This document shows, piece after piece, positions 14,301-61,141 of a DNA stretch of 64,000 nt. Positions within the stretch are counted from its first letter, which is position 1; each line of letters opens with the position of its first letter. Below the pieces are notes generated by a model. The model ran no database searches, was not told the DNA's origin, and was given only the letters and a program-made list of their open reading frames with translations. Made by a program: the position numbers and the translations under genes. Source of the DNA: Naegleria gruberi (lineage: Eukaryota); NCBI GenBank assembly GCA_000004985.1, contig GG738913.1; one strand, given 5' to 3'.

Positions 14301-17300
14301 TCGAAAGGTTTTCAGTAATGGAACAATCACCACTATAGCTGGAACTGGAAGCATAAATTATAATGGAGATATTCAGGAGGCAACTTTAACAACTCTTAAT
14401 TCACCAAGAGGAGTTTACATGTCACCAAATGAAGATGAAATTTACATTGCCGATTCGGGAAATAACTTGATTAGAAAAATCAAACTTGATTGTCCATCAG
14501 ATTATGAATTGGACAAGAGATTGGGAGAGTGTGTGCAAATTGTCAAGTGTTTTGGTATTTTGGCCACCGACAACTCAGTTTGTTCTGGAAATGGACAATG
14601 TGTCGATGGAAGCTGTATCTGTAACAACCAAACCTTTACAGGGCCTAACTGCTCTAGTATCACTTGTTTTGGAAAAGTACCTTCAGATTTGATGGTTTGT
14701 AGTGGAAATGGTCAATGCGTTACAGCAAATAATTGCTCATGCCTTTCTGGTTATGTTGGGAATGAATGTCAAGCGAATCTGAATCCATTCTCCATCGAAT
14801 TGTTGAGAAATGAAACTATTTCCAATAATTATAGTTATCAGATTAAGGATAATGGATTGAATATGACAAATTATTATTGGACATGCCAGAATTGGGATCC
14901 AAATATTTCAATTTCAACAAGTGGAAGGAATGCATTCGTAACTTTCAGTTCAGCTTACTCTAAAGTGTATCTGTTGTCGGTTTATGCTTCAATTCCCAAT
15001 TTCAGCCCATATCCTCCAAGAATTTCGAATACTATCCTGTTCACTATTATTTCCCCTAATGTTACCATTCAGCCAAGTTTCAATCAAACAACCAATGAAA
15101 CTCTACAAAATAACCAGACAGTGAACTCAAACCAAACAACAAACAATTCATCCATTCCCGTTCAAAATAATCAAACAATAGCAAACGAAACATCCACTAA
15201 TTCAAACAGTACTGATACCAAAAGCGTTAATATTTCAGGAAAGTTGGGAGTTTTTGGTCTTCCCTCGGTTTTGGTTTCAAAACAGATTGACGTTTCAGCA
15301 GTAATTTCTAATATTTCACTGAACCAAACTTCTATCAATTCGTTCCTATCATGCACTCCTAATTGTACATTAAAAATTTCATATGAATGGAAAATCAATA
15401 TTGATAACAACCAAGCAGCCAATCAAACTGGTTTTACCACTTCCATTTCTTTAGGTAATAATTTGATGAGCTTTAATCCACCAATTCAAATCCAATTCAG
15501 TACAAGTAATGTAAAAGGAGAGAAATTCACACTTTCCCTTGCCCTTTTTTCAAACAATGGAAATATTTCATCGAGTACAAGTATGGATATCGTTACCCCA
15601 GTCCAACCACCAACAGCATCTAATTCCACAACTTCAAAATCATCAAATTATTTAATGAGTGTCAATCCAGAGAAGGGAGTTGCCCTGAGTGACTCATTTT
15701 CAGTTAGTGTCGCATCATGGAATGCACCATCACAAATTCTTCCTCTCAAATATGCTATTGGATTTGTTTCTAATGGAAAGGACGTGAGATTTACAGATTA
15801 TGCACAAACTACTTTGTTCAATATTTACCTTCCTTACTTGATCCAACAATCCAGGGGTCAAGTTTCAGAAATTCAACTCTATCTCTATGTTATGGATGCA
15901 ATTGGAAATGTTGTAACATCTCCAACTGGACTCTCCATTTCAGTTTCTCCTTTTAATGGAACTTCTAGTGAATTGGTCCAAAAAATCAACGAGCTTGGCA
16001 CTACTTCACTAGTAGTTGCATCCTATGATAAATCCTATACAGTTCTCTCAAGTAGTGGAGGAAATTCAAGTGAGTTAGTGTATGAAATTGTGAAAAATAT
16101 TCAAATTGATCCAAAGAATCCAGAAACTGCCCTCACATCCATCACCAGTCTTACATCCACTACGAGTGTAATTAATGAAAATATTGTGAGTGAAGTAGCA
16201 AGTAAGATCACCTCGTTTGTTGATAATGTGAAAGATATCTATGCATACGAAAAGAGAGTATATGGATTTGTCAAAAGCAAGGTTTCACCTGACAATATTC
16301 TCTCTACTGTGACTATTACTTCCAACCTATTAGCAAGTGGAGTTGATAGCGAGAAAACTGTTGGCGTAGTTGATAATGTTGCCTCAATGGTATTGTTAGC
16401 AGAAATTCCAAAACTTCTCACAAGCTCTGAAAAGCTCCAATACATCTCATTCACAACTGGTATGGTGAATATTACAGTTTCTAGTTTCAAGATGACCTCT
16501 CCAATAGAGGGTAATCAACTAATCGAGGAGGAGAACAATAAGGTATCTGCAAATTTGACAAGTATCATGATGGAATATGGAACCTTAAATAAGGAGTGTG
16601 GTCTATCGATGGTCTCCTACACAAAGAACATGAAGTTTGACAATTACACATCAAATACTATTCATGCTTCGAGTATTAACGATTTCAAATTCATTCAAGA
16701 GCAAAATATTGTACGACTCGATAATCTCGAGCATCCAATTGTGCTATCATTCAAATTATCTCATATTCCACAACAAAACAGTTCAGTAAATTCCACATTC
16801 TCCTGCAGATATTGGGATGAAACTAATAAGATATGGAGCGATAGAGGTTGTCAACTTTCCAATATTGACCTGAATGCTGGCACAGTAGAATGTTCATGCA
16901 GCCATACTACAATGTTCACAACATTTGTAGAACAAAAGACTACCAGTATTATGATAGCAATGAAAGAAGAAGTTGCAACATTATATTTTGTACAAATAGC
17001 TCTTGGTGCTGTTTATACTATTGTTGCTTTGGTAATTATTACTGGTTTGATAATATTGAGAAAGGAGCAACCAGTAACAAGTAGACTTATCACCCCATAT
17101 GTAGGAATGGTGGCTCTCATTGCAGAGAGTGTGTTGATTTACATTGTCCAAAGAAGTGTCCTTGTGAGTCAGCTCCTTTCCACAACAGATCCCAAAGTAT
17201 GGGAAGTTGGTGATAATGCTGCCAATATTATTGCAAACAGTGTTGCCATTGTTGTGAATACTTTGAATTTGACTGCTACATTGTGCTATGTGATGCAAGT

Positions 17301-18732
17301 TTCCAGATTCCAATTCCTTAAACATTTGTACAAGCTCTTGTCCGATAATAGATCAGATATGGCAAAGAATGCCAAGATTTTGAAAGTCCTCAAATTGATA
17401 ACCTCTCAGAAAATATTCTTTTCAATTATTGCAATCTTTGCCGTGTTGAATGTTTGTTTCTGGACTCTTTGGGTTGTTCTAGTAAGGACACAAGTCATTG
17501 ATGCCTCTACCTATACCTATATTGTATCATCTTGTTACATTACTTGTATTCTCTTCTTTGGAGCAGTTATTTGCATTGTAGCCATTGCTGATTGGATTAT
17601 TTCCACCAAGAAACACGTAACAGCAGGTCAGGAAAGAAAGAGAAAGACTGTCAGTTTCACCACTCTCAGCTCTGAACCACGAGAATCCATCAAGAAGCGA
17701 CTCTTCTCTCCAAAACAACTCTACGAATGGTTAATTCAAGTTGATGAACCACTCTATTTCCGATTCGAAATGCTCCTCTACATGATTTGCTTTGTCTTCC
17801 AAGTGTTAAATCTTGCCATTGGCTCCTCCAGTCTTTCCTACCGATATGCTGACTTGGATTCATACAAGAAAGCACTTGCTCTCGATGGAATCTCCTTCAT
17901 CTTTGAAGTACTCTATGTGGTGAGTTACTTGTTTGTGTTTGGTGGTTTTGCTCTCTTGATTGCCATATTGTACAAGTACAAGAAGAAGAAACAACATGAT
18001 GAAGCCTCTACTTTTCTCATCAACAAATTGAATGGTGGCAACAATAACAAGGTCGACGAAGGAATCATGAGTGAGGAGATGAGGGATGTGCTAGATAAGA
18101 ACGAAGGCTATCTATTATTCGAAGCCTTCTGTGAGAAGGAATTCTCTCTAGAAAACCTCTACTTGTACTCTGACTTGAAAGCCAATGAAACCATCACCAA
18201 AGGAAGACAATTCACCAACCTAACAACCTTCATGAGATTCATCTTTAATAACTACATCCGAACAGGAAGCACCACAGAAGTGAATATACCAGCCAAGTGT
18301 AGGAATAACTTTTTACTTGTCTATAAGAATGTAGCATCAAGTAGTGAACATATGCAACAACAATTGGGAATTGCTGAGAAGGTGAGTAGGAGTGAGGTGG
18401 AAAGACTCGATAGGAATCTACAGGTGGTTATCAAGAATGATCAAGTAGCTACTTTATCAACTAAAACAACAACTACAACTTCTACTAATGAACAACAACA
18501 ACAAGAAGGAAATATCAAATCTTCATCGCCAGTAGCTGCTGTAGAAAATGTTGATCATGTGGTGGAGGGTGTTGTTTCTGCCTTTGAATTCCTCTACAAG
18601 CAAACATTGGTTAATTTGGGTGATACCTTCTCTCGATTTGTCTTTACGAGTGAATACAAGGAATATTTGGCTTCATTGGAGGCTCAGAAGGTTGTTACGG
18701 TGGAAATTATTGCTGCCTACGGAGATGTTTAA
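11359..18732 (+). CDS. Giant adhesion-GPCR-like receptor of about 2440 aa: signal peptide, about 20 NHL repeats, EGF-like Cys modules, Ser/Thr/Asn-rich stalk, GAIN/GPS motif, 7TM, C-terminal RGS domain.
   Basis: Exon 1 is 11359..11497 (MSALKQVKIAALLLNLLIISWCLNVFG signal peptide). A 45-nt intron at 11498..11542 (GTAGGT..AG) preserves phase. Exon 2 is 11543..18732. NHL motifs (YxADxxNxRIRKI) repeat throughout aa 50-950. EGF-like CxxxxxCSGNGQCV appears twice. The GPS motif is CRYWDETNKIWSDRGCQLSNIDLNAGTVECSCSHTTMFTTF. Seven hydrophobic helices follow. The RGS core is LLFEAFCEKEFSLENLYLYSDL...FIFNNYIRTGSTTEVNIPAKCR. Confidence 0.6.
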
Positions 18733-22052: not shown

Positions 22053-25000
22053 TTATTTATCATTACTTGGACTGACAGGAGTGGCAGCAGTGACACCAAT
22101 AGAACCAAAGCCACCAACATCAATCTTCAAGAAGGATTTACTCTTCTTATCGTCATTTTCCAATCTCTTTTCAATCCATCCAATAATTTCAGTATTATCA
22201 CTTTGAATGGCAAGTTGTAAAGCTTGTTCAAGTGAGACAGCTCCAATTTCACACAAATACTTGACAACATTCAATTGAACACGTTTGATGGCCATTTCCA
22301 AAGGTGAAACTCCATTCAATGTCTTGATAGCACTAATGTCAACTTTCAATGGTGAATCAGCTGCTGGAGCGAATTTACCATGGTAATTTCCATTTTCAAC
22401 TAATAATTTAACAACGTTTGGATGTCCATAACCAGCTGCAAAGTGGAGTGGAGTCAATTGTTTGTCTTCTCTTGTGTTGATGACTACTGAACAGTCACAA
22501 CCCTTTTCAATGAGATATTGAGCACAGTCAACTCTGCCACTGATAGCACACAAGATAATTGGTCTCATTTGCAAGTCGTGTCTAGATTGATCAACTGAAA
22601 CATTGTACTTTTCAACAAGCAACTTGACAGCATCCAAATTACCATTCTTAGTAGCAGCATGAATTGGTGGATAGGAATTTTCAGTGTACGATTCTTCATA
22701 ACTTCCACAAGGATCCAATTTAACTTCATCAATCAAATATTCAATAACACTGACATTTCCTCCATAAGCAGCAGCTGAAAGAATTGTTTCGGCTCCCTCT
22801 GTAACAGCACCACTGTTAGCACCCTTTTCAATGAGCTTCTTGACAAGCTCAACTTGAGAATTTTGAGCAGCAAAATAAAGTAATGATTGACCCAAACTAT
22901 TGGAGAAGTTCAAAATGTTTTCCTCAGATGGGTTTTCAAGAGCTGTTTGAACAATCTTGGCACCGACGTGTCCTGGCAAATCCTTACATTGAACAGCAAG
23001 GAAAATTGGTAAATCCTTTCCACCAGAACGCTTTTGACAGTCAACTCCATGGTCAACCAAGAAAGAAGCAGCAGGTGGGCAGTGCAACATGCAATTGTGG
23101 AGAGCAGTATATTCTACAGAGTCAGCAGCACGTTTTTCACTTTCATTGACAAGATTGGTCAATTCTTCACTTGTCAACAAGTTAGCATTCAAAATTAATG
23201 GAATGGCATTCATGTTCTTTGCTCTGATAGCCAAATGCAAGAAGGTTGATGAAGAGTGCATTCCAGAAACAGTGCTACCAATATCGAAACGAGAGAGGGC
23301 AAACTTTGGAACTTTGGAGAAGAGAGTCTTCAAGATGACTTGACATTTTTCCAAACAGAATTCATCATGGAATTGAATTCCAGAAATTACAAATTCAATC
23401 AAGAGATTTCTCAAATTTTCCTTCACTTCACCATCAGAATTATCATCAGATGGTGGAGCAATGAATTCAGAAGCCAATTCTTGTAAGTGGGTTTCAATGG
23501 CTTCAGTAGTGACCAATCCAATAGATCCTGTTTGAGTATTATCACCAATGATACTCTTTCCAATTGAAAGCCACTTGGTCACGAGTGGATTATTATTAAT
23601 GGTGAAGAGAACAGATTGATTTGCTGTTGAGCTAGTTGGAGCCAATGGATTGGAAGGTGCATTCTTGTAACCTGGAGTGGCTAATCTTTCATTGAAAGAG
23701 TTCAACAAGGTAGCATTCATCAACTTTCTAGTATTTGAACCAATCAATGAAACCAACATTGCAAATGGACTCATCTTGCCATACTTTTTCAATTCTTCCA
23801 ATTTAATATTACCATACTTGGAAGCTTCACTTTCTGTAATCTTGTCAACATTTCGTTTAGTTCTAAAGAACAAATTACCACCTCCTCTCTTGAGCAAAAT
23901 CTCCAACATTCTTCCATTTTGATTGTAAATGGCATAGTGCATTGGTGTCCAACCAGCATCATTCTCAACATCAACTTGAGCATCTTCATAAACCAATTTT
24001 GTAACCAAATCAAATTCATTTTCACGAGCACACAAATTCAATGCAGTAAATCCACCATTCTTATCAATTTGATTAATGTTAATCTTACTTTCCTTCTTCT
24101 TTTCCAAGATCATACTCAATAATTCTTCACGTGGTTTCAATTGACCTCCAGAACGTGGTGAAATGCCACGAGGAGACATTCCTCCAGATCTAGGTGAAAT
24201 GGATGAACTAAATTCAGCTGTACCAGAAGTATTTAAACTCAATCCAGGAATATCACTTGCAAGTGTTGAGCTAGCAGTTGCTGTCGAAGAATTTTTACTG
24301 TCAGCAAGTGTCAAATCTCTTGAAATGGCAATGAAATGCAAAGCAGTTTGATCCAAACGATTCTTCTTATTAAAATCAACCCCATTATCCAACAAGAACT
24401 TGGTCAATTTCAAATCCTGATTCTTCACAGCAATATGCAATAAAGAATCCTTGTCAACATAACCCATTTGTGTCAATTGTCTAATTTCTTCACTTGTCAA
24501 ATATTGTTCATCTTCTTCATCATCTGATAAATCTTCTTCTCTCAATCCAGGAGCAATTGTCATTCCTCTTGATGAAGGAGTTTTTGGAGTATCTTCTTTC
24601 GAATAATGTAAATAAGCTAATTTCGAATATTCTCCATTACCAATCAAACTACGAACGTCAGTAAAGGAATGTTGTTCGATCAATTTTACAACTTTGAGAT
24701 GAAGTTGAGTTTGAGAAGATTTCAATTCGTCAATTACGTTTTCAATGGCGTTCATCCATTCTTTACGTTGTTCTTGATTTTCGGCTGAGAACCAATAGGT
24801 GAAAGTGGTTGGGGAGTCTTCAGATTGGTTATTTGATCCTTCCTCATTGGAAGGAGCTGTTGTTTTTAAACCAAAGGTGTTTTCTATTGTTATTCGAAAG
24901 TAAAATTAATATTCGAAAAAAGGTAAAATGATCGAATAATGTGATGATTACTTACGGAAACCTTTGTGATTTTCAATATCTACAATAGTAGAAAAACGAG

Positions 25001-26893: not shown

Positions 26894-29800
26894 CTATTGG
26901 AGAACCTTTTTACAAGTTTGATATATATTATCCAAACTTTCTGCCATGTGTGATGAATCTGTTGTTCTGGAAATATTGCAAATTTCTCTCAGGGTTTGTT
27001 CATATCTCAATAATTGTGCCCTCATGGACTGATTTTCAAACCTCAAAGCATCCATTGTTGAACTTTTCAATTGTAATAATCCTTTCAATAGATCGACATG
27101 TGTAAAATGTTTGGTCGGCTCCTTTAGAATTTCTAATAGATTATTCATAATTTTGAGATAATGAATACATTCTCCTCTGTGTGTTGAACGAGATTGGATC
27201 ATTGTAATTAAACACCTTCCAAGAATATCATTGAATAGCACCTTTTCCAAAAAAGAATTAGGATGGGAGCAAATAACCTCAAGATTTGGATCTATAAACT
27301 TGTCAATTTCCTTTCTAATAGATTGATGAAGCATGGCCTCTCCTTGTGGAGTACTTAATAACTTGAAAAAGTAATTTTTTCCAACTCCAAATAAACAAGA
27401 TGAACCAGAATCTTCATTCGTTGATATAATACTCAATGTTCTGTTGCAGATCATTTTCATTAAGACACATCCCATTGAGTAAGTGTCACAATTCTTTGAG
27501 ATTTTGAAATTTTCCGTTTGTTTGCCTTCTTCCTCATCATAAACCTCTGGAGCAAGATATTACCATGTCCCTATATTCACTGATATTGAGTGGTTGGATT
27601 GAATAACTTTGGAATTGTCAAAATCAATGAGTTTGGCATGTCCTTCATTGTTGATTATTACATTTGCCAACTTTAAATCTGTACAAAATTTCAGTATTGA
27701 TTTTGAAAACAATAAACATACCTCTGTGTGTGAAATTTAGATTATGCAAACTGATGACACCCTCAAGAACTTCAGTAAAGTACTGTAAAACTTCAATCAA
27801 ATCTTGAGTGGATAAGCAATGCTCCAAATTTAAATAATTTTGGTGCATTTCTGACATTACATGATCCAAAGGAGATCCCATTTCCATAATTAAATAGCTA
27901 TACTTGCTATTATGCAACTCATAAAAATTACATTCAAATGTTTTGACAATACCCTTCAAATTTGGTGTTTTCTGCATTTAAAGTTGTGAGTTAATGGAGT
28001 ATGAGGTAGGAGACTTTTTACGGGCAATTTTTCAACAATTTCTTCAATCCTACCGTCTCTAACATATTGATAGAGTTGAAATAGAAATTGAACATCCTCT
28101 CTAAGTTGTTCGGTCTCTAGGACGTAATTTAAAATCTGTTTGTTCTCATAAAGTTTGTTAATTTTTACACAGTCCAAAATTAGTTCAGTATCCAATTTTT
28201 TAGTCGAGTAGAGGATGGCCAATCCAAAAGTTTTGGTAGCTGTCAAGATAATATTTGAATCGCTTTGTAGGGAATTTGATGCAAATTTCAAAAGTTCACC
28301 TTTTTTCTCAATGAGTGGAGTGATAAGATTCTTTCCATACTTGAATTTTTCAGAGGCGAATTGAATGGAAAGTGGATTTTGAGCAATCGCCATCTGAACT
28401 ATTTGTAAATCCTCTTTGAAAATACCTGGAACTATTTCAAGAAGCAATCCGTTCCTTTCTACATATTCCAATATCTTCATTTTGTCGTTTTTCAATTCTC
28501 TAGAAGCATATTCGAAAGAATAATAGTTTTGAGAAACTGCAAGATCAACTATTGTAGGATTATTCCTCAATCTTTCAGATGCATACTTTAAAGATAGTCC
28601 TCTCGATTTTACAGCAATAGAAACGAGACTTTCATCATCCTGAAAGGAGTTTGGAAGAAATTCCAAAGCATATCCATTAAATTCGAGCAACTCCTTCATT
28701 GTTTCAATGCTTACAGTATTCCAATCTGTAAATTTTTGGAGAAGCATTACATTTCTTTCTGTCAATTCTTTTACAGACATATTTTCCTTCATTTCCAAGT
28801 TTAAATAAGAAAATTCCTGTTTCATCAAGAAATTAATAAACACCTGCAGTGCTGGGCAATCAGTTTTGATTCGAATAAAGTGTTCTAAATAATCCATGCC
28901 ATGGATTATGTTATTTTTCGTAACCTTGTTACCAATACCGCCTCTACTAGTTTCACTTTGAGGAAATACCAAAGCCAATAGAAAATAGTATTGAACGGCC
29001 ATTTCTGATGTTGTTATGGCTACTGCCTTCATATCATCAATCAACTTTTCAATAATTTCAAAAGTATAACTTTGTGAAAGGTTGTTGATATATCTGAAAA
29101 CGATATCGACTCCCAAAATTGTTAGATTTGAAATCATACTTCTTATACTGGAACGATAGTCCATTGCTAGGAACCAGTAATTAATGTTCTTCCAATAAAT
29201 TTCCTTTAACAATTCCAAATTACAACAATTTCTTGATTTCTGTTGAAACATTTTCTTGAAACAAAACTCAATTAATTCAAAATCTTTTTCATCTTGAGTA
29301 GTTTCTACAAATTCTCTAAAAATACTGAAAGATTTGTTAAGGTTACGAATTGACTGATTGTAATATGTTTGTAAGAGCATTGCTTTAAATCTTAAAGTTG
29401 CTTCCTTGGATAGTATTTGACTAATTACACCATTTTCGTCCAACAACATGCTGCATTCCGTGAGAGAGCAATAGCAATGTAGATCTTTTGATTCTTTAAC
29501 TAGCATCAATGCATCAAGAATATCTAGTTGTGTTACATGGGAAATAAAAATGAAATTGTCAATAGATATTCTTTCGTTAATAGAAATGACCTCTTGCGGT
29601 AGGTTTCGAATGCTCTTTTGTCTAAGATTCAACAATTTAAGCAGACTGGGACCAAAATATTTACCTTCATCATCGTACACAATTCCTGAATCACGAAATT
29701 GTTTCTTAGCTGATCCATCACTATTAAATAAAATTGAGGAATATTGAGAGTGGACCAAACCTTTAGTCAGCACAATATAATTCTTTTCATCTAACATCAT

Positions 29801-30934
29801 GAGTTCTCTAATGTCATATCCAAAATCCAATGGATCTGTATTTGTTTCATAATCCATTAATAAATTGAATGCTTGATGAATTTTATCATCCATGATAAAT
29901 TGAAAAGCTTTTTGAATTATTGAATGATCTTTTTTGGTTGGAATCTTAATATTTGGATGTGTGAATTTCATAACAATTTGAGTAGTAGACTTGTAATTAG
30001 TGATTCCTTCGATAGTTACAAATAGTCCATGAATGGTTTCTTGAATATTAGTGAATTTTGTTTGTTTCAATTTTGAACCTTCTTGGTGTTGGCTCATTAA
30101 TTCTTCTACAGTCAATGTCTGAAATAAATCAACACTTTTGTCTTTGTTAATATTGTAAAATTGTAATGTTTTTCCATCATGTGAAATACAGGAAGCTAAT
30201 ATTGGTTGACAAATTGAAATTCTCTTAAAAAAATAACCATTAAAAGTGATATCATTCTTTTCAATATTTGAAATCAATTGAGCAACAACTTGAATCTCTG
30301 TCTTTCCATTTCTAATATCGGCTTCATCTCCATTCAACACAATCTCTTTCAAAATTGTTTCGGTTTTGTAATCATACACTACATACACATTCCTAAATCT
30401 CAATACCATACTATTTGCGAGAAAAATCAATGAATCACATCTTTTAGATTCAAATTTCTCCAAATTAAATCTTTTTTCAAAAGATAGAAATAAAAAAGTC
30501 ACTGGTAATTTTCTGTAAACTGTAAATCGAAATTCCTTTCCCCAAACAATACAAAAAGAATCGTCTAAACTTTGTAAAGGAATTCTTCTTGTACAAGAAA
30601 TCAATTCTCCTGTTTCTTTCTTTTGGAAAATGGAATTTCTTTCCTTTAGTGTAAAATCCAAATCAGATCCAGTCTTCTGGAATGCGTTACCCTCAAATTT
30701 AATTGTCAGCTCTTTTCCTAAAGCTGAAAAACTGTAAGAAAAGAGTTGTACAATAGAATTCACACCTTCACCTTGTAAACTTTTATCAATTACTGTTGAG
30801 TAATGAACAAGCAACATTCCTTTTTCTTCATGACATTCAATTTTTTGAATGGAACAAGTTTCGGGTGAATTTTCTTGGAATAAATGTTGGTGGTGAAAAC
30901 TTACCACAAAATAATTCCCAAATTTGTTCCACAA
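26894..30934 (-). CDS. Large protein with C-terminal DUF4116 repeats followed by a protein kinase domain (HRDLKLAN, DFD). It carries one in-frame TAA at 27562..27560.
   Basis: A 992-aa ORF (30934..27956) holds DUF4116-type repeats (FASExFKxDxxxxLxAV...) in its last about 250 aa. The kinase exons are 27977..27722 and 27678..26894. The intron between them, 27721..27679 (43 nt, GTATGT..CAG), reconstitutes HR|DLKLANVIIN. The splice upstream of 27977 is uncertain; one candidate is donor cccGTAAAA with acceptor tgCAG. The activation segment reads GTW-TAA-YLAPEV. Confidence 0.5.
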
Positions 30935-31815: not shown

Positions 31816-34351
31816 ATGTCGCAACTTGATGTCAGCTCACATAATGCAAGAGATTCGTCTATTCCACTCCGTGCTACTACTTCTACCCTTCTAAAACAAT
31901 CAACACTCGAGCAATCGTGTGAGAAAGTAAACGAAAGTTCATTAATCATTGAAACATTTCCTTCCCAACATTCTATTGGAAATCAAACACGAAAGGTTCA
32001 TTCTCCACGTTCAGATCAAACTCTTTCCGAAGAAGAAACAAATTCCATCATTTTGGAAATGAAAGAAATGGACGAAATGTTTCGAACAAACAAGAAGAAA
32101 TCGAAATTTGCACATCTTTATCAATCAAATAAGAAACAAGGTTTAAATCAATCGTTTGCCACATCAGAAAAGTTTAGTTCATCATCCCATAATGAAAATT
32201 TATGTGCATCTTGTTGTGGAACTTTACGTTGGTCAACTGTCATGATTTTGACAGCTGTCTTTTCGATAATGATACTTTTATTTGTTGCAATCATTTCCTC
32301 GATTATTGTTACGAGTTATGATGAGTTGGAAAGAGGAAATTCCAAAGCAGATATGAAAAGAGTTGTCAAAAGTTTTTATGATGAATTTGTGAATTCATTG
32401 GAGGTATGTTTGACTTTTGACAATGAGTTTTAATTGAAATTTTGGATAGATTATGCAAGCAGTTGCTGTTTGGGATGAGCCTTATAAATTATTTCAAAGA
32501 TATTATGATCCATCAGAAAATCAAACTGAACTGGCAGTTGACATGCAACTTTTTTTGGAAACTAATATTGATTCAGCTCAAATGTTGTTGGAAAAACACA
32601 ACTATGCGCTGTTCTATACCTTGAATGGAACTTTAATTGCAAGTAGAGCTCACAATCTTATAGACGAAAGTCAAGATTTATCCGATTTGTCAAAAATTCC
32701 AAAAGAATTATTGGAATTGAATGTAAATTCGAATCCTCTTTTCAGAAATGCAGATAAAGCTGGAACTTCGAATGGTGGTTTCCTTAAAGTTTCGAATGGC
32801 GTAGTAGAAAATAGCAAAATTGTCATGTTAGTGGCGAAACCAGTTTCTCCAAGTAATTTCAATGAAAATAATCCAACTTCTGGATTGATAGTGTATGGTA
32901 GACATGTCACTTATCAAACTAAGGAAAGAAATGTGTTTAGAGCTTCTACATGTGTTAGTTTTTTGAATTTTGACGAAACTTTACAAAAATATTCGAATGT
33001 TAATGCTACGAGAGTTTCAGTAACAAGTAATATTTGGGAGAATGATCAAGTTTTATCCATTGATATGTATGACGACCTCTCTAGTAGAAACTCTCTCGAT
33101 GATCGTCATTGCTATTCGAAATCTGAACTAAACTCAACTTCCCCTCGAGTTGGTTCCATTCAATTCCTTGCCGATCTCAATGGAAACCCAATCCTAGCCA
33201 TCCGATCCGATACTGAACGAAACATTTACCTCCTAGGAGTTCGTTCCTTAGCCCTCTCCATTGCCTTACTAGTTTTTTCATGTATTATTGCAGCCATTGT
33301 AATCATTGCCTTTGTGGAGAGGCGAGTATTGAGGAGAATGTTTAAACTTTCAAGGAGAATTCAGGAAATTACAGCATCACATGATCCTAAACAGAGAATT
33401 GAAATTGGTCGAGGAGGAAACTCAATTAATGCCTCGGAAAGAAATTTGATTTTTGATGAAATTGACACGACGGCGAAATATATTAATGAAATGTTGACTA
33501 GTTTGGATATTGTATTGGAAGAGCAGTTGAAGGAACAGAAAATGTTAAGAAAACTATTGGAAAGAGTGTACACAGCAGAGGAATCAGGAAGTGCCATTAT
33601 GAATGCTGTGAAAGATGTCGTGTTTATTGTGAATGGAGATAGTGGACTAGTTCTGAATGCAAATAACAAGTTTTATGAACAGATGGAGAGGAGTGTGATG
33701 GAAGTGGAGGCAAAGGATCAAGTTTATGTTTCGAATTTGTTTTTGGAAATGAAATCACTCGAAGCCAAATTTCAGAATAATTTGAGAACTGCCTTACTCT
33801 CCCTTAATGATGGAAAATCGCATCTTTTCAGAGGAATGACTCCATCTGGTAAAATTATTAGATACAATGTATTCATTTCCAAAACAAAAGTCATGCAAAA
33901 TAACGAGAAGGTCATTTCATTCCTATTTATGGCAAAGAAGGACGATTCACTTTCTTTAGGAATTGACCAAGAAATCATTAATGAAAAATTTGAGAAAATG
34001 ATTAATAATACGAAAAAGAGAAGAAAATTCCAGAAATTCTGCTCAGAAAAAGGTCAACTCTACAATTTCAAGTTTATTAGAGAAGTAAGGGATTACAAAA
34101 CAACGGAACTTCCAATTGACCGAGCAAGGAAACAATCTGAAATTTGTTCCAACTTTTTGAGGAAAGATTCTCCATTCCCATTGAATATTGGAGCAATTGA
34201 TTTGATTAAGGGAGAAATTGAAAAGATTCTAAAAGAAGAAACACCTCAAATTTCCTTATTTGATGGATTGAATGATATTTTGGAAAGTATTTTGAAATCA
34301 GAAGTTTTTACACTTTACAAAATTCAAAAATCAAATCTTCTCTACACATAA
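31816..34351 (+). CDS. Two-TM sensor-type signalling protein: cytoplasmic N-terminus, TM1, extracellular sensor domain of about 270 aa, TM2, PAS-like segment, C-terminal RGS domain.
   Basis: Exon 1 is 31816..32403. A 46-nt intron at 32404..32449 (GTATGT..TAG) preserves phase. Exon 2 is 32450..34351. TM helices: VMILTAVFSIMILLFVAIISSIIV and YLLGVRSLALSIALLVFSCIIAAIVIIAFV. The RGS-like C-terminus is FQKFCSEKGQLYNFKFIREVRDYK...ICSNFLRKDSPFPLNIGAIDLIKGEIEK...LFDGLNDILESILKSEVFTLY. Confidence 0.5.
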
Positions 34352-34426
34352 CTGTTGCAAATAGATTCAACTTATTAATTTTCCTAGTATTTTATGAACG
34401 ACAGATGACTTTGATGTTTCATTTTA

Positions 34427-36823
34427 TTAGCATTTAAAATTTATATTTGAGATTTCGACTGGAACACAATTAAGACAGGAAAGACTGTTGATTGAATAGT
34501 GAAGGGTAGTTCTATAATTCTTGCAAAGTTCAAAAAGTGCATTATCCGAATCTTTCGAATAATCTAAAAGAAAGTTCAGAACATAGATTATTCTATTGGC
34601 AACTAGGGTATCTGAAGGATTTTCATCAATATATCTTTGAAAGATTCGTCTACTTTCTCTAACTTTCTCTGAAAAGTTTGCTTCTTCACTTTCCACTTCG
34701 AATATTGAAACGAAAGCATTTTGTAAACTTTTGAATTGAGAATTACAATTCGATTGTTCCAATTCGTACAGCCATTCGTCAGGATTAATCGAATTTTCTC
34801 TCAAAATTTCATGAACTGAAATTAAATGTTTCGTTTTTGAATTGAAAATTTCCATTTCCAGTCGGTCAACTGGCCTCAACACGTATTGATTGATTATAAT
34901 GGGAGATACTGAACCACTGTCCACCAAAATTTTACAATCGAGAGTTTGCCCAAAGGTGGCCAATTTTCTGGCGTTCTGAACTATAGGCCCAACAATCGAA
35001 TAAGAACGAAGCGAATTGCTACCTACATTTCCAACAAATGCCATATCTGTAAAAATTCCTATCGAATAACAAAGTTTTCTTTCAGATTTACCATGAATAT
35101 TATCTAAAATCTTGCAAATCTTTAGACTTGCTTCGATTGCACTTGATTCACATTTCTTATTTCCATCGACAAAAGTGAGCTGATATTCGTCCATGCTAAA
35201 AATGTGTAAATCCGAAACTTGCATTGTTTTGCAAAGAGTTGAGAGTCCGTTAGCAATTTTGGAAAAGATATTCGAAAGATCATGGGCTGATGTGTCTTCG
35301 TTGAAGCCAAATAATTTTACGTTTACAACGCTAATTCTGGAATAGTTTAAACCTAATTTGAATAAACTTCCTGTGGTGATTTTTGAACTATTTTGAGAGG
35401 AAGTTGTAGAGTTTCGTAAAGTGGAGGTCTTGATCATTTTGGAAGTGCCAATTTCTGAGGAAACTTTGATGGATTGTTGATCCTTTTCGAATAAGGAAGG
35501 TTTCCACTCAACCTGTTCGAAATTCTTCAATTGATTAAAAACATTTTCTGGAAGAAAGGATTTAAATTCGTTCAGCCAAGTTACCATGTCAAATAAATGT
35601 TCATAAATACTATCCACTTCTTTGAATTTGCTAGAATTGAAATTACATGACTTCAAGTCAAAAGTTTTGATTTTCAAGAATTGATTTTCCAAGAATCGAA
35701 GAGGGTCTGTTACCAAATGACCAATGATAAAACTACACACCACTCCAAATACTATCACTACAATAGCAACTCCCACAGAAATGCCAGAATTAATATTTGT
35801 AGTTTTTTCGACATCTGACTTGAAGACAACCATGTAGAGAATCCAGTGCACGTTCAAAAACTTGTAATCAACTTTTGAAATATCATAACCAACCCCCAGG
35901 CTATATATCTGAAAGAATGAAGGAATTTCTTTTAAATTACCATATTGGGAGCGAACATCTTTCATCAGTTGACCAGCATCTTTGTCAGTTAAATCAAATA
36001 TCGAAACCCTTGATCTCCCTTCACTTGAAGATGAGTTAATTGATGCTCCAATAACCAAATCATTCAATTCTGCCAGTATAACATATCCATTTCCAATTAA
36101 GGTTAATTCTTGTAAAAATTCTTGAATGGAATTCAACATTAGATTCGATTTTGCAATTCCAATCAGCTGCTTTTGTCTAGTATGTAGATAATGTGAAGAG
36201 TTATATATTTTGGTGGAGCAGTAAATTGCCATTCCAGAGTTGACCACCAAATATGGTTCACCAATGATTACATTTGTTTGTAATTCCTCAAATAGTTGTA
36301 AACTCTGATTCCAGTAAGGTTGTTCTGTAACATGATAGGTAGAAGAATCATTTCTAAAAACACTAGTTGTGCTTCCATCTGTTTCGTTAACATTCCAAAA
36401 GATTATTCCCTCGTTTAGTTTCTCTAAATAGGTCAGTATTGTATTTGGTGGATAACCAGTCAAGGTATAGGTATACAATTGATCAGGATAGAAAACTCCC
36501 AATCCAGACGATTTAAAAATCTTGTATTTCTCATACAAATAAACAAGTTTCGGTTTTTCTCCAATTACTCCATTATTAATGTCAGCTGCCAAGCTCATTG
36601 ACAGCTTGATATGTGGTTCTATCTCTGAATTGATATAAGAAACTGTTTTATCCCCCACCTTTCCTATCAAATCTTTTGTCATGTTTTGAAGAGCATTCGT
36701 AGATCCCACAAATGAAGCCAACCAAACAAATATTGAACAAGTTATCAATAGGATAACTATTAGAAAGGTAATAAAAGCTCTCATTGATATGAATCCCATG
36801 CATGCGATGGGTTTCTTTTCCAT
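34427..36823 (-). CDS. Sensor adenylyl/guanylyl cyclase (798 aa) with an ACG-like architecture: N-terminal signal-anchor, extracellular sensor domain, TM, class III cyclase homology domain.
   Basis: Continuous ORF. Hydrophobic FITFLIVILLITCSIFVWLASFVG near the N-terminus and GISVGVAIVVIVFGVVCSFIIGHLV at about aa 340. Catalytic-domain motifs VVNVKLFGFNEDTS and LCYSIGIFTDMAFVGNVGSNSLRSYSIVGPIVQNARKL correspond to (F)ADIxGFT and RIGIHSGxVxxGVIGxxxxxYxVxGxxVNxAxR of class III cyclases. Confidence 0.6.
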   Translation of the reverse strand: MEKKPIACMGFISMRAFITFLIVILLITCSIFVWLASFVGSTNALQNMTKDLIGKVGDKTVSYINSEIEPHIKLSMSLAADINNGVIGEKPKLVYLYEKYKIFKSSGLGVFYPDQLYTYTLTGYPPNTILTYLEKLNEGIIFWNVNETDGSTTSVFRNDSSTYHVTEQPYWNQSLQLFEELQTNVIIGEPYLVVNSGMAIYCSTKIYNSSHYLHTRQKQLIGIAKSNLMLNSIQEFLQELTLIGNGYVILAELNDLVIGASINSSSSEGRSRVSIFDLTDKDAGQLMKDVRSQYGNLKEIPSFFQIYSLGVGYDISKVDYKFLNVHWILYMVVFKSDVEKTTNINSGISVGVAIVVIVFGVVCSFIIGHLVTDPLRFLENQFLKIKTFDLKSCNFNSSKFKEVDSIYEHLFDMVTWLNEFKSFLPENVFNQLKNFEQVEWKPSLFEKDQQSIKVSSEIGTSKMIKTSTLRNSTTSSQNSSKITTGSLFKLGLNYSRISVVNVKLFGFNEDTSAHDLSNIFSKIANGLSTLCKTMQVSDLHIFSMDEYQLTFVDGNKKCESSAIEASLKICKILDNIHGKSERKLCYSIGIFTDMAFVGNVGSNSLRSYSIVGPIVQNARKLATFGQTLDCKILVDSGSVSPIIINQYVLRPVDRLEMEIFNSKTKHLISVHEILRENSINPDEWLYELEQSNCNSQFKSLQNAFVSIFEVESEEANFSEKVRESRRIFQRYIDENPSDTLVANRIIYVLNFLLDYSKDSDNALFELCKNYRTTLHYSINSLSCLNCVPVEISNINFKC

Positions 36824-37428: not shown

Positions 37429-39337
37429 ATGCAAAAATTCAACGCCGGCGTTCTGTTGATGACCCTAATGGTCGCCATCAGCATGCTCCTGTTATTAACG
37501 AGCCAATCAGTGAGAGCCGATTTGCCAGTCCATTGCTTGTATAATTCCACAGCTCCTGGAGTTTGGGAATTTGAATTGACTGATCAAAACATGAGTGGAG
37601 ATGATGTTGCTGCCAAGTGCGATATTCGTGCTCCAATTCAAGCAACCCGTACAATGAAAGTCTATTTGCAAATGCCAGATATTGCCATTGATGAGAAGGG
37701 AAATACTGGATTCTTTACTTTGGTTTATGATCAAGGCTTTGAAGTTGTTGTTGGTGGAAATAAGTATTGGGCCTTTTTTAATTATACAACTGCTGGAAAG
37801 GGTATGTTTTTATTAATATTCAATGATAACAATAACAAAATTAATATCATCATTTTCATTAATTAATTAATCATGATGATGAAATTTAATAATTAATTTT
37901 ATGATGATGCAAATAATTTTGATTGGATGCGGAATGTGGTATGATGGATAATTAAATATCTAATGATTTTTTGCATGATTTTTGTGCAATGCAATGATGT
38001 TGATGTGGTGAATATGAACATACAGACTCTCAAGGAAATGACATTATCATTTCAAACTGTGATCGTACTTTCACTGGTTGGTATCATGAAGCTAAGGTCA
38101 AGGCCAAGTCTTGGGGATGTTACAGAGCCAGAAGACTCTCATTGCTCCAAGGATCTACTGCTACTCCAAATAAGTTTACTCATACTGTTGCTCCTAGACC
38201 AAACTATAAGGGAATGGTTTTCAAGAATGACATGTCTTTGATTAATGATTTGAATGCTTTGCATGCTAAGGGAGAAATCTCATGGAAGGCCAAGCCAATG
38301 CAAGAATGGGAAAATCAACCACTTGAAACTGTTGTTCCAAAATTCGGTCAAAGAAGTGAATCTTTCAGATTGAAGCAACGTAGAGAACATACCAAGTTTA
38401 TGAGAGCTAAATTCGGTGAACAAGCCAACAAGAAGGTCTTGCTCGAATTGAGAAGTGAAGATTTCAGCAAGGCTGCTGGTAACTTGACTTTCCATCATTT
38501 GAGAGATATTGCTGCTAAGGGTTTCGTTTCCATTCCAAAAGCTTTTGACTGGAGAAATGTCAATGGTCAAGACTTTGTTTCACCAATTAGATCCCAAGGT
38601 CAATGCGGATCTTGCTACAGGTAAGTTTAGTTTTTGAGAATTTGTTGAAATTTAACGAATTACTTGAACAGTTTTTCAACAACTGCCATGATGGAAGCCA
38701 GAAAGAGAGTTTTCACTCAAAACAAGGAACAACCAGTTTACAGTCCAGAAAATATCATTTCATGCTCTTTCTACTCTCAAGGATGTGATGGTGGTTTTGC
38801 CTATCTCAGTAAGTAATATTATTTAATATTTCGGTTTGATTAATCAAAAATATAGTTTCCAAATGGGGTGAAGACTTTGGAATTATCGCTGAGCAATGTG
38901 ATCCATACACTGGAACTCCACACAAGTGCAATCTCAATCAAGCTTGTTCAACCAGACAATACTGGACCAATTATAGATATACTGGTGGTTATTATGGTGC
39001 TGTCACTGTTGAAAATATGCAATTGGATGTCTTAAAGTATGGTCCACTTTCTGTCTCTATGGAAGTTTACAATGATCTCTTCAATTATCACAGTGGTATT
39101 TATAGACATGTTTCATCATCAAAGCTTACTTCTCCAGTTCCAAATCCATTCGAACTCACTAACCATGTTGTTTTGATTGTTGGTTGGGGTGAAAATGAAA
39201 AGGGCGAAAAATATTGGATTGTCAAGAACAGTTGGGGAACATCATTTGGAATGGATGGTTATTTCTTGATTGCTAGAGGTGTTGATGAATGTGCTATTGA
39301 ATCTGAAAATGCTTCTGCTATTCCAACTCAACCATAA
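37429..39337 (+). CDS. Cathepsin C (dipeptidyl peptidase I), a papain-family cysteine protease with an N-terminal exclusion domain. Four exons.
   Basis: Exons are 37429..37801, 38026..38620, 38672..38808 and 38856..39337. Introns are 224, 51 and 47 nt (GTATGT..CAG, GTAAGT..CAG, GTAAGT..TAG) and are phase-consistent. The exclusion domain (CLYNSTAPGVWEFELTD...FFNY...NCDRTFTGWYHE) aligns with human CTSC DTPANCTYLDLLGTWVFQV...FFKY...YCNETMTGWVHD. The catalytic region is [35 protein letters not shown]...QGCDGGFAYL...HVVLIVGWG...YWIVKNSWGTSFGMDGYF. Confidence 0.75.
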
Positions 39338-60058: not shown

Positions 60059-60695
60059 NNNNNNNNNNNNNNNNNNNNNNNNNNNNNNNNNNNNNNNNNN
60101 NNNNNNNNTTCTATATCATTATAGATCATGTACATCAGGTTGGTAAAGTTTCAATAAGTGGTCCTTTTTCAAGATTTCATCCTATTCGTCATAGTTGAAG
60201 AAGTGTGATTGAGGGAAGAAATCTTTAAATATGAAAGTTAAAATAAATTTGATGTTCGATGTATACTCACCAAATGGAACATTTTCATGTCAGGATTCAA
60301 TATGTTTTGATGAGAAACTCAAAAGTTATAGTTGACCTATTTTACTTCACAACTTCCCTTTTCACTTCATACTTTTATATCTACAGACTTGAACTTTTGA
60401 AATTTCATATGAAAGTGATTATAAATGTTGTTAATGGTGATATAGACTATATAATCTCATTAAAGGATTTTGAAATTATCATTCTTCCTATAGTTTCATT
60501 TATGAAATTTTAATCTGACATTATTTACAAAGTTAATATTTTATAAATTGAAAAACTAAATATACCACGTTGTTCTACTCATCATTTCCTATCGAATGAT
60601 ATAAAATTTAATGATATTTGAATAAGTTTATAATTTTGGGCTAGGGTTTGAAGGTTGGGTTTAGAATAATTCTATTTTTAGAATTGGGTTTGGGT

Positions 60696-61091: not shown

Positions 61092-61141
61092 NNNNNNNNN
61101 NNNNNNNNNNNNNNNNNNNNNNNNNNNNNNNNNNNNNNNNN

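What the first reader, a model, noticed from the sequence alone, without database searches (positions are those of the whole stretch)
31816..36823. Tail-to-tail pair of sensor-domain signalling genes: 2TM-sensor-PAS-RGS protein next to an ACG-like sensor cyclase
Gene 31816..34351 has the topology of a bacterial-style sensor (TM1, extracytoplasmic domain of about 270 aa, TM2), but its output is a PAS-like segment plus an RGS domain. The convergent neighbour 34427..36823 has an extracellular sensor domain, one TM and a single class III cyclase catalytic domain. Like Dictyostelium ACG, it would need to homodimerise. The two genes' stop codons are 76 bp apart. A receptor that turns off G-alpha beside a receptor that makes cAMP/cGMP could form a coupled environmental-sensing module. 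The sensor-TM-PAS-RGS combination itself looks unusual.
Basis: partly seen in the sequence, partly recalled or inferred. Interest (0 to 1): 0.7.

Follow-up and report, generated by a model that had tools for sequence, protein, structure and literature searches.

The report
Two unrelated Naegleria receptor genes, adjacent
Two neighbouring genes of the amoeba Naegleria gruberi encode a bacterial-style membrane sensor ending in a G-protein "off-switch" (RGS) domain and a sensor ending in a cyclase-like domain that has lost its catalytic residues; nothing links them beyond adjacency, though the first architecture is an undescribed receptor type.

Summary
The window is Naegleria gruberi.

**Gene 1** (31816..32403 + 32450..34351, one 46-nt intron, 829 aa) reads TM1, CHASE4 ectodomain, TM2, HAMP, coiled coil, PAS, RGS.
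- It belongs to an uncharacterised family in Heterolobosea (Naegleria, Willaertia, Acrasis). All 35 members examined carry an RGS domain.
- It appears to be missing from public protein sets.
- Its own RGS keeps both key Asn residues but has lost Ser85, Glu87 and Arg167 (RGS4 numbering).

**Gene 2** (34427..36823, minus strand, 798 aa) reads TM1, dCache_1-fold ectodomain, TM2, HAMP-like segment, disordered linker, cyclase-homology domain, helical tail.
- The cyclase domain is homologous by fold and profile but falls below the Pfam threshold.
- It lacks the first metal Asp (Lys503), the substrate Lys, and the transition-state Asn and Arg (Gln616, Lys620). It is probably a pseudo-cyclase, not an ACG-like enzyme.

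**Pairing.** The genes are convergent, with stops 75 nt apart. The pairing is absent from all eight related loci examined. With 229 RGS genes in this genome, about two to three chance RGS–cyclase adjacencies are expected.

The parts
31816..32403 (+). Gene 1, exon 1: Ser/Thr/Asn/Lys-rich cytosolic N-terminus (aa 1-140), TM1 (aa 141-166, 32236..32313) and the start of the ectodomain
   Evidence: ORF and hydropathy. aa 134-202 of the exon-1 ORF align to positions 4-72 of the family profile.
32404..32449 (+). Gene 1 intron, 46 nt, GTATGT...ATAG
   Evidence: Read from the sequence. Removing it restores the frame. Not confirmed by RNA data.
32450..33226 (+). Gene 1 ectodomain, continuing from 32314: CHASE4 sensor of about 290 aa
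   Evidence: Pfam CHASE4 28.8 bits against GA 26.2. 28 of 35 family members hit CHASE4. The family profile hits PDB 9p50_A (chain named 'Diguanylate cyclase') at E 1.8e-8 over these positions. The AF2 model has pLDDT about 90 here.
33227..33310 (+). Gene 1 TM2
   Evidence: Kyte-Doolittle peak of 3.25. Continuous helix in the AF2 model.
33311..33607 (+). Gene 1 HAMP domain plus coiled-coil linker
   Evidence: Pfam HAMP is sub-threshold in gene 1 (13.6 bits) but hits 25 of 35 family members. The family profile hits Af1503 HAMP at E 2.6e-4.
33608..33943 (+). Gene 1 cytoplasmic PAS domain
33962..34351 (+). Gene 1 RGS domain and stop codon
34352..34426 (.). 75-nt spacer between the two stop codons
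   Evidence: Read from the sequence.
34484..34798 (-). Gene 2 C-terminal helical domain (aa 676-780) with the conserved DEWxYELEQ motif; no known family
   Evidence: Alignment A1. Helices in the AF2 model. No Pfam hit.
34844..35350 (-). Gene 2 degenerate cyclase-homology domain (aa 492-660)
   Evidence: Profile A3 against PDB class III cyclases, E 1e-4. Foldseek TM 0.64-0.66 to 5oyh and 6aob. Key positions are K503, I541, D545, S609, Q616 and K620.
35351..35515 (-). Gene 2 low-complexity linker of variable length (aa 437-491)
   Evidence: pLDDT 22-32. Gapped and variable in A1.
35516..35710 (-). Gene 2 HAMP-like segment and the highly conserved helix WLNEFKSFLPExxFNQL (aa 372-436)
   Evidence: Densest run of invariant columns in A1. 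It is the only region that hhalign aligns to the gene-1 family HAMP, and only weakly, at probability 11%.
35711..35785 (-). Gene 2 TM2 (aa 347-371)
   Evidence: Hydropathy.
35798..36703 (-). Gene 2 ectodomain with the dCache_1 fold (aa 41-342)
   Evidence: Foldseek against PctA/B/C, Mlp24/37 and CtaA ligand-binding domains: E 6e-9 to 1e-7, TM 0.62-0.75. Pfam dCache_1 is sub-threshold in paralogues.
36710..36823 (-). Gene 2 start codon and TM1 (aa 15-38), missing from the public model P0001
   Evidence: ORF and hydropathy. TM1 is conserved in paralogues P0002-P0006.

Best explanation
Two independent, convergently transcribed Naegleria gruberi receptor genes lie next to each other. Each belongs to its own lineage-specific expanded family, and the adjacency is most likely coincidental.

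**Gene 1** is a receptor-GAP built on a bacterial-type sensor chassis.
- Shown: the domain order CHASE4 ectodomain between two TM helices, then HAMP, coiled coil, PAS and a C-terminal R4-like RGS domain.
- Inferred by analogy with bacterial CHASE4/HAMP sensors: the protein works as a dimer, and ligand binding to the ectodomain is relayed through TM2, HAMP and PAS.
- Inferred by analogy with 7TM-RGS proteins acting on the self-activating G-alpha subunits of Naegleria: this relay changes how the RGS domain reaches G-alpha-GTP and so tunes GTP hydrolysis.
- This particular copy has diverged at four of six G-alpha contact positions. Its GAP strength or its G-alpha partner may therefore differ from the rest of the family.

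**Gene 2** is a dCache_1/HAMP receptor whose cytoplasmic class III cyclase-homology domain has lost most of the catalytic residues.
- It is predicted not to make cAMP or cGMP.
- Purifying selection on its HAMP-adjacent helix, on the cyclase-like dimerisation scaffold and on a novel helical tail suggests it signals in another way: through regulated dimerisation, through scaffolding, or by titrating active cyclase partners.
For: **Organism.** Gene 2 is 100% identical to an N. gruberi predicted protein.

**Gene 1 architecture**
- Pfam RGS and CHASE4 score above threshold.
- The family profile hits RGS10, RGS2 and RGS18 at E 1e-13, PDB chain 9p50_A (named 'Diguanylate cyclase'), which I take to be a CHASE4 ectodomain structure, at 1.8e-8, and HAMP at 2.6e-4.
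- The AF2 model has mean pLDDT 82.8.

**Gene 1 family**
- 270 representatives at E<=1e-3, 50 of them at E<=1e-10.
- All 35 aligned members carry RGS, 28 carry CHASE4 and 25 carry HAMP.
- Sources are N. gruberi, N. lovaniensis, Willaertia magna, Acrasis kona and metagenomes.
- The family keeps S85, E87, N88, N128, D163 and R167 in 24-31 of 35 members.

**Literature context**
- N. fowleri G-alpha subunits are self-activating, and RGS domains of 7TM-RGS proteins accelerate their GTPase (PMC9283941).
- PA2072 has the same CHASE4-TM-PAS chassis with a different output domain (PMC12625894).

**Gene 2**
- dCache_1 and cyclase folds, and cyclase homology by profile.
- HMMER aligns family 'ysivGpllsnakkl' to 'LVGDTVNTASRM' and 'ILGDAVNVAARL', so Asn becomes Ser/Gln and Arg becomes Lys.
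- No F-x-D-I-x-G-F-T-type motif occurs in any of the 8 members.
- The position of the first Asp is K/H/Q/E across the family.

**Independence of the two genes**
- None of 8 related loci repeats the pairing.
- Chance expectation is 2.3-3.2 adjacent pairs per genome (using 229 RGS from PMC3971589).
- There is another RGS gene in the window.
Against: - The eight comparison loci hold paralogues or distant relatives (40-48% and 29-35% identity), not proven orthologues. Absence of synteny is therefore weak negative evidence.
- The chance estimate uses literature counts. The gene total and the cyclase count for N. gruberi come from memory, and the estimate assumes random gene order.
- No expression data were available, so co-regulation cannot be excluded, nor can antisense interference across the 75-nt spacer.
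- Gene 1's own RGS lacks Ser85, Glu87 and Arg167, so the GAP function is less certain for this copy than for the family.
- HMMER did not align the N-terminal half of the gene 2 cyclase domain. The Lys503 and Ile541 assignments rest on motif-level manual alignment plus the predicted strand/helix order, in a model of only moderate confidence (mean pLDDT 58.5; about 70 in the cyclase domain).
- The intron is predicted, not verified by RNA.
Confidence: 0.72

Rival explanations
1. One reading: the two genes form a coupled environmental-sensing module. One receptor turns off G-alpha, the other makes cAMP or cGMP, and selection keeps them together.
For: Immediate tail-to-tail adjacency with a 75-nt spacer. 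Both are 2TM receptors with PAS-like double-module ectodomains and a HAMP or HAMP-like segment. In animals, G-alpha proteins regulate adenylyl cyclases (general knowledge).
Against: Convergent genes share no promoter. The pairing is absent from 8 of 8 related loci. About 2-3 such adjacencies are expected by chance. The cyclase domain lacks its catalytic residues. The two ectodomain families are not detectably related.
Confidence: 0.07
2. Gene 2 is an active but non-canonical nucleotide cyclase, either as a homodimer or as a heterodimer with another of the many Naegleria cyclases.
For: The cyclase fold is kept. The second metal Asp is kept as Asp or Glu (D545). Invariant G598, N599, G601, R606 and N617, and a mostly conserved Lys620, suggest a constrained pocket. 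UniRef names the N. fowleri and N. lovaniensis homologues 'Guanylate cyclase domain-containing protein'.
Against: The first metal Asp is replaced by K/H/Q/E. The substrate Lys is Ile. The transition-state Asn is Ser/Gln/Asp/Thr, and the Arg is Lys/Ile/Asn. The domain therefore supplies neither complete half of a canonical class III active site, even within a heterodimer. No Pfam hit. A disordered linker of about 55 aa replaces the rigid helical connection from HAMP to the domain.
Confidence: 0.13
3. Gene 1 is a decaying or neofunctionalised copy. Its RGS domain no longer acts as a GAP and serves only as a G-alpha-binding or scaffolding module, or does nothing.
For: Gene 1 differs from its own family at S85Q, E87Y, D163E and R167L. 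Its RGS score is 37.7 bits (E 3.1e-09), against a best family E-value of 3.9e-18. The gene is absent from public protein sets. Some RGS domains are known to have lost GAP activity (PMC3971589, citing Anantharaman 2011).
Against: 829 codons are open in a 33% G+C genome, with a clean intron. Asn88 and Asn128 are retained. The RGS fold is modelled with confidence.
Confidence: 0.3

Closest known systems
Pseudomonas aeruginosa PA2072 and related bacterial CHASE4 sensors (PMC12625894, PMC13277305)
   Same: A CHASE4 ectodomain flanked by two TM helices, followed by a cytoplasmic PAS domain and an output domain. Dimeric transmembrane signalling is presumed.
   Different: The output is GGDEF-EAL (c-di-GMP turnover) in bacteria. 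Here it is a eukaryotic RGS domain, and a HAMP domain is inserted. Known bacterial ligands (extracellular ATP, heme, copper) cannot be transferred. The host is a eukaryote.
7TM-RGS receptor-GAPs (Arabidopsis AtRGS1; the 28 N. fowleri 7TM-RGS proteins, PMC9283941)
   Same: A membrane receptor with a C-terminal RGS domain, thought to give ligand control of GTP hydrolysis on self-activating G-alpha. The same organismal lineage uses this logic.
   Different: Seven TM helices against two. There is no CHASE4, HAMP or PAS relay. The RGS domains tested in N. fowleri are from other proteins.
Dictyostelium ACG
   Same: A membrane-anchored extracellular sensor domain followed by a single cytoplasmic class III cyclase-homology domain that would pair as a dimer.
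   Different: ACG has a CHASE-type sensor and a catalytically competent domain. Gene 2 has a dCache_1-fold sensor, a HAMP-like segment, a disordered linker, a cyclase domain without the first metal Asp, substrate Lys, Asn or Arg, and an extra helical tail.
Bacterial dCache_1 chemoreceptor ligand-binding domains (PctA/B/C, Mlp24/Mlp37, CtaA)
   Same: The fold of the gene 2 ectodomain (Foldseek TM 0.62-0.75), placed between two TM helices and followed by a HAMP-like segment.
   Different: The output is not an MCP signalling domain. Where the amino-acid-binding R-x-W-Y motif would be expected, gene 2 reads Q-P-Y-W. That motif is recalled from memory and was not formally aligned.
Degenerate cyclase-homology domains, for example the non-catalytic half-sites of pseudo-heterodimeric cyclases such as soluble adenylyl cyclase C2 (PDB 4clf hits)
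   Same: The cyclase fold is retained with loss of some catalytic residues, and the likely role is dimer formation.
   Different: Those domains still supply one complete half of an active site. Gene 2 supplies neither half.

Membership tests
RGS domain (Pfam PF00615) | Sequence score above the curated threshold | tested here: met
   37.7 bits against 23.9, aa 512-622 of the exon-2 ORF.
RGS domain (Pfam PF00615) | All-helical RGS-box fold | tested here: met
RGS domain (Pfam PF00615) | G-alpha contact/GAP residues (RGS4 S85, E87, N88, N128, D163, R167) | tested here: inconclusive
RGS domain (Pfam PF00615) | GTPase-accelerating activity on a G-alpha | not testable with these tools
   Needs a biochemical assay.
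CHASE4 extracellular sensor (Pfam PF05228) | Sequence score above the curated threshold | tested here: met
   28.8 bits against 26.2. 28 of 35 relatives also hit, best E 7.5e-14. The family profile hits PDB 9p50_A at E 1.8e-8.
CHASE4 extracellular sensor (Pfam PF05228) | Located between two TM helices, facing outward | tested here: met
   TM1 is aa 141-166 and TM2 is aa 456-483. Orientation is inferred, not tested.
HAMP domain (PF00672), gene 1 | Sequence score above threshold, directly after TM2 | tested here: inconclusive
   13.6 bits against 25 in gene 1. 25 of 35 relatives hit at E<=0.01. The family profile hits Af1503 HAMP at E 2.6e-4.
PAS domain, gene 1 | PAS fold (five-stranded sheet with flanking helices) | tested here: met
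7TM-RGS receptor-GAPs (AtRGS1 type) | Seven transmembrane helices N-terminal to the RGS domain | tested here: not met
   Only two hydrophobic segments.
Class III nucleotidyl cyclase catalytic domain (PF00211), gene 2 | Sequence score above the curated threshold | tested here: not met
   No hit at E<=1 for gene 2. Paralogues score 13.3-20.3 bits against 21.9.
Class III nucleotidyl cyclase catalytic domain (PF00211), gene 2 | Cyclase-homology fold and homology | tested here: met
   Foldseek E 1.7e-6, TM 0.64-0.66 to 5oyh and 6aob. Family profile E 1e-4 to 6sir, 5oyh and OaPAC.
Class III nucleotidyl cyclase catalytic domain (PF00211), gene 2 | Two metal-binding aspartates | tested here: not met
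   The first is Lys503 (K/H/Q/E across the family). The second is kept as D545 (D or E). No F-x-D-I-x-G-F-T-like motif in 8 of 8 members. The first-Asp assignment is by manual motif alignment.
Class III nucleotidyl cyclase catalytic domain (PF00211), gene 2 | Transition-state Asn and Arg (G-D-x-V-N-x-A-x-R) | tested here: not met
   HMMER alignment to LVGDTVNTASRM and ILGDAVNVAARL gives GPIVQNARK, that is Gln616 and Lys620.
Class III nucleotidyl cyclase catalytic domain (PF00211), gene 2 | Substrate-specifying Lys/Asp (or Glu/Cys) pair | tested here: not met
   Ile541 and Ser609, both invariant in the family. The Ile541 assignment is by manual alignment.
dCache_1 sensor (PF02743), gene 2 | Sequence score above threshold | tested here: not met
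   No hit in gene 2. Paralogues score 14.9-17.5 bits against 45.
dCache_1 sensor (PF02743), gene 2 | Double-module Cache fold with a long N-terminal stalk helix | tested here: met
   Foldseek TM 0.62-0.75 to PctA/B/C, Mlp24/37 and CtaA. Secondary-structure order in the model agrees.
Dictyostelium ACG-type sensor cyclase | Catalytically competent single cyclase domain behind an extracellular sensor | tested here: not met
   Catalytic residues are missing (rows above). No direct alignment or phylogeny with ACG was run.
Conserved functional gene pair | Adjacency conserved in related genomes or more frequent than chance | tested here: not met
   0 of 8 related loci. Expected chance pairs 2.3-3.2 per genome. 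Orthology of the loci is not established.

The most novel reading that the evidence does not exclude
CHASE4-HAMP-PAS-RGS proteins are a second class of ligand-gated receptor-GAPs, evolved independently of 7TM-RGS proteins. A bacterial-type two-TM sensor chassis, possibly acquired horizontally together with the CHASE4 histidine-kinase-like sensors, is wired directly to heterotrimeric G-protein inactivation in Heterolobosea. Beside it, dCache-HAMP pseudo-cyclase receptors form a conserved non-catalytic signalling family.
Probability: 0.4. Interest if true: 0.6.

Novelty: new variant of a known kind. Interest (0 to 1): 0.35.

Why it matters
- Naegleria G-alpha subunits are self-activating, so GAPs rather than GPCRs set the signalling state (PMC9283941). 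A family of RGS proteins gated by a bacterial-style CHASE4/HAMP/PAS relay would be a direct route from extracellular chemistry to G-protein shut-off. It would also show prokaryotic sensor modules being re-used in a eukaryotic pathway.
- The family occurs in the pathogen's genus and could matter for how these amoebae sense prey or host.
- The gene 2 family warns that part of the very large 'cyclase' count in Naegleria may be pseudo-enzymes.
- The pairing itself, which was the core of the original finding, appears to be ordinary gene-dense adjacency.

Tried and rejected
- **Word-indexed protein search with spliced gene 1:** no hits at all. Repeating it with the family profile gave only peripheral bacterial-type sensors and one unrelated RGS protein. 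Family membership therefore rests on the exhaustive representative search with the exon-2 ORF.
- **Exact-sequence contig look-ups for the N. gruberi proteins P0001 and P0002:** not on record. N. gruberi paralogue neighbourhoods could therefore not be examined.
- **hhalign of the two families:** only a weak TM2/HAMP match at probability 11%, and no ectodomain similarity. I dropped the idea that the two sensors are the same sequence family.
- **Closest gene-1 relative (environmental contig L007):** it has a convergent neighbour 26 bp away. That fragment carries a terpene-synthase-like NDLLSYHKD motif (motif recalled from memory) and does not match the gene-2 profile.
- **AFDB fold library:** unavailable, so taxonomic spread by structure was not tested.
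- **Anantharaman et al. 2011 (Gene 475:63):** the paper most likely to have catalogued RGS architectures in Naegleria could not be read. The supplements of de Mendoza 2014 are not held. 'Undescribed' therefore means not found in the searchable library.
- **Pseudogene idea for gene 1:** considered and not favoured, because the ORF is intact.

Full report
**Source and gene models**

The window is AT-rich, about 33% G+C. It comes from Naegleria gruberi: the minus-strand ORF 34427..36823 is 100% identical to an N. gruberi 'predicted protein' (P0001).

Gene 1 is not a single ORF. A 205-codon ORF starting at 31816 and a 632-codon ORF ending at 34351 lie in different frames. A 46-nt GTATGT...ATAG intron at 32404..32449 joins them in frame, giving 829 aa. 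The splice is supported because exon 1, including TM1, aligns to the N-terminal part of the family profile. It has not been checked against RNA.

Gene 2 is a single 798-codon ORF. The public model starts at Met48 and so omits a hydrophobic segment that is conserved in the paralogues. The stop codons are 75 nt apart.

**Gene 1 architecture**

- Hydropathy gives two strong TM segments, aa 141-166 and 456-483.
- Pfam places a CHASE4 domain between them (28.8 bits, threshold 26.2) and an RGS domain at the C-terminus (37.7 bits, threshold 23.9). HAMP is sub-threshold and no PAS model hits.
- An exhaustive HMMER search with the exon-2 ORF found 270 representatives at E<=1e-3. Many are full length, but the best is only 35% identical.
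- Of 35 aligned members, all have RGS, 28 have CHASE4, 25 have HAMP, and 7-13 hit each of several PAS models.
- The family profile hits R4-type RGS structures at E about 1e-13, PDB chain 9p50_A (named 'Diguanylate cyclase'), which I take to be a CHASE4 ectodomain structure, at 1.8e-8, Af1503 HAMP at 2.6e-4, and PAS domains at about 3e-4.

**Distribution of the gene 1 family**

Named members come from N. gruberi (at least four annotated paralogues), N. lovaniensis, Willaertia magna and Acrasis kona. The rest come from metagenomes and read-archive assemblies. This is a multigene family across Heterolobosea.

Gene 1 itself has no entry above 35% identity in either protein collection. It appears to be unannotated.

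I found no paper describing a CHASE4- or HAMP-linked RGS protein. The most relevant catalogue, Anantharaman 2011, could not be read.

**Likely mechanism of gene 1**

The sensor chassis is that of bacterial CHASE4 proteins such as PA2072, which reads CHASE4 between two TMs, then PAS, then GGDEF-EAL. The PA2072 CHASE4 domain has a long scaffold helix, a PAS-like membrane-distal subdomain and a smaller membrane-proximal one (PMC12625894). Bacterial CHASE4 ligands already include extracellular ATP, heme and copper (PMC12625894, PMC13277305), so the ligand here cannot be inferred.

The output logic matches the 7TM-RGS receptor-GAPs of plants and Naegleria. In N. fowleri, several G-alpha subunits exchange nucleotide spontaneously, and RGS domains of 7TM-RGS proteins accelerate their GTPase (PMC9283941).

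I therefore infer a dimeric, ligand-modulated GAP. The domain order is shown. Signal relay and GAP activity are inferred.

One caveat is specific to this copy. Aligned to RGS4, the family keeps S85, E87, N88, N128, D163 and R167 in 24-31 of 35 members. Gene 1 reads Q, Y, N, N, E, L (RGS4 sequence from memory, numbering verified in the script). Both critical Asn residues remain, but three contacts are lost.

**Gene 2 architecture**

Gene 2 has two TM segments, aa 15-38 and 347-371, not one.

Pfam finds nothing at E<=1. Seven homologues at 40-48% identity exist in N. gruberi, N. fowleri and N. lovaniensis. They give only sub-threshold dCache_1 and Guanylate_cyc hits.

The AlphaFold model is moderate overall, with mean pLDDT 58.5. 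It is better in the ectodomain (70-88) and in the cyclase-like domain (about 70). Foldseek matches the two domains as follows:
- the ectodomain to dCache_1 ligand-binding domains of amino-acid chemoreceptors, at E down to 6e-9 and TM 0.62-0.75;
- aa 492-660 to guanylyl and adenylyl cyclase catalytic domains, at TM 0.64-0.66.

A domain-only family profile hits class III cyclases in the PDB at E 1e-4.

The segment after TM2 is the most conserved part of the family. It is the only part that aligns, weakly, to the HAMP region of the gene 1 family. A disordered, length-variable linker of about 55 aa then precedes the cyclase-like domain. A helical tail of about 105 aa with a DEWxYELEQ motif follows it.

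**Catalytic competence of gene 2**

HMMER aligns the family segment 'ysivGpllsnakkl' to 'LVGDTVNTASRM' (rhodopsin-guanylyl cyclase) and 'ILGDAVNVAARL' (photoactivated adenylyl cyclase).
- The transition-state Asn is Gln616 in gene 2, and Ser, Asp or Thr in paralogues.
- The transition-state Arg is Lys620, and Ile or Asn in some paralogues.
- The base-specifying Asp position is an invariant Ser609.

In the N-terminal half, which HMMER could not align, three points apply:
- no member contains an F-x-D-I-x-G-F-T-like motif;
- placing G506-F507 on the canonical G-F puts Lys503 at the first metal Asp, where the family has K/H/Q/E;
- aligning the conserved Phe551 places D545 (D or E in the family) at the second metal Asp and Ile541 at the substrate Lys.

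The domain thus offers neither complete half of a class III active site. I call it a probable pseudo-cyclase. The residual chance of non-canonical activity is listed as a rival.

**Are the two genes a module?**

They are convergent, so they cannot share a promoter.

I fetched 10 kb on either side of four gene-2 relatives (N. fowleri x2, N. lovaniensis x2). I did the same for four gene-1 relatives (N. lovaniensis, Willaertia x2, and the closest relative on an environmental contig). I scanned all six frames with both family profiles. No locus holds the partner family, and no called gene near the gene-2 relatives has a Pfam RGS hit on record. The convergent neighbour of the closest gene-1 relative carries a terpene-synthase-like motif instead.

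N. gruberi encodes 229 RGS proteins (PMC3971589). N. fowleri encodes 107 RGS and 80 cyclase proteins (PMC9283941). With about 15,700 genes and about 100 cyclases in N. gruberi (my recollection of the genome paper), random placement gives 2.3-3.2 adjacent RGS/cyclase pairs and a 90-96% chance of at least one.

The same 64-kb window holds a second RGS gene. It is a 2385-aa NHL/EGF/GPS/multi-TM/RGS protein at 11575..18732.

Profile comparison shows no similarity between the two ectodomain families, although both belong to the broad PAS-like double-module class.

The negative synteny evidence is limited because the compared genes may be paralogues, and no expression data could be consulted. Overall I rate the coupling hypothesis at about 7%.

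**Verdict**

What remains of interest is gene 1. It is an apparently unannotated member of an undescribed heterolobosean family that wires a bacterial-type CHASE4/HAMP/PAS sensor to an RGS domain. This is a new variant of the receptor-GAP idea. It is interesting to signalling specialists but not startling, given how freely Naegleria recombines signalling domains.

Noticed in passing
window 11575..18732 (+): A single 2385-codon ORF encodes NHL/teneurin-type repeats, EGF modules, a GPS motif (aa 1743-1782), six to seven hydrophobic segments (aa 1800-2134) and an RGS domain (aa 2170-2252). It is an adhesion-receptor-like 7TM-RGS protein and the second RGS gene in this window.
   Followed up: partly
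window 36683..36823 (-), the first 47 codons of gene 2: The public N. gruberi model of gene 2 (P0001, 751 aa) begins at Met48 and lacks TM1, which is conserved in paralogues. The deposited model looks truncated at the N-terminus.
   Followed up: yes
window 31816..34351 (+): Gene 1 has no entry above 35% identity in either large protein collection. It seems to be missing from the public N. gruberi protein set.
   Followed up: partly
window 27956..30934 (-): A 992-codon ORF with four DUF4116 repeats at its C-terminus (Pfam E 4e-37), immediately upstream of gene 1 on the opposite strand.
   Followed up: partly
window 60648..62351: A long simple repeat that translates as (LG)n, followed by two runs of N (assembly gaps) inside an ORF whose remainder has a kinase-like look ('HCDISIRN'). 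The repeat explains the GC-skew spike of 0.384 at 60-62 kb.
   Followed up: no
window 37429..38800 (+): Several short ORFs in different frames look like exons of a cathepsin C/papain-type cysteine protease ('QGQCGSCY'), just upstream of the gene 2 start. Not scanned against Pfam.
   Followed up: no
window 3178..4989 (-) and 22053..24755 (-): A Schlafen AlbA_2 plus BTB protein, and a large ankyrin-repeat protein. Neither is related to the finding.
   Followed up: no
P0007 (N. gruberi protein, 1272 aa; not in the window): A GT10 fucosyltransferase domain fused N-terminally to a gene-2-family protein. This is probably two neighbouring genes merged in the public annotation.
   Followed up: no
L007 10439..10879 (-): The closest relative of gene 1 sits on an environmental read-archive contig. 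It has a convergent neighbour only 26 bp away whose fragment carries a terpene-synthase-like NDLLSYHKD motif (motif recalled from memory).
   Followed up: partly
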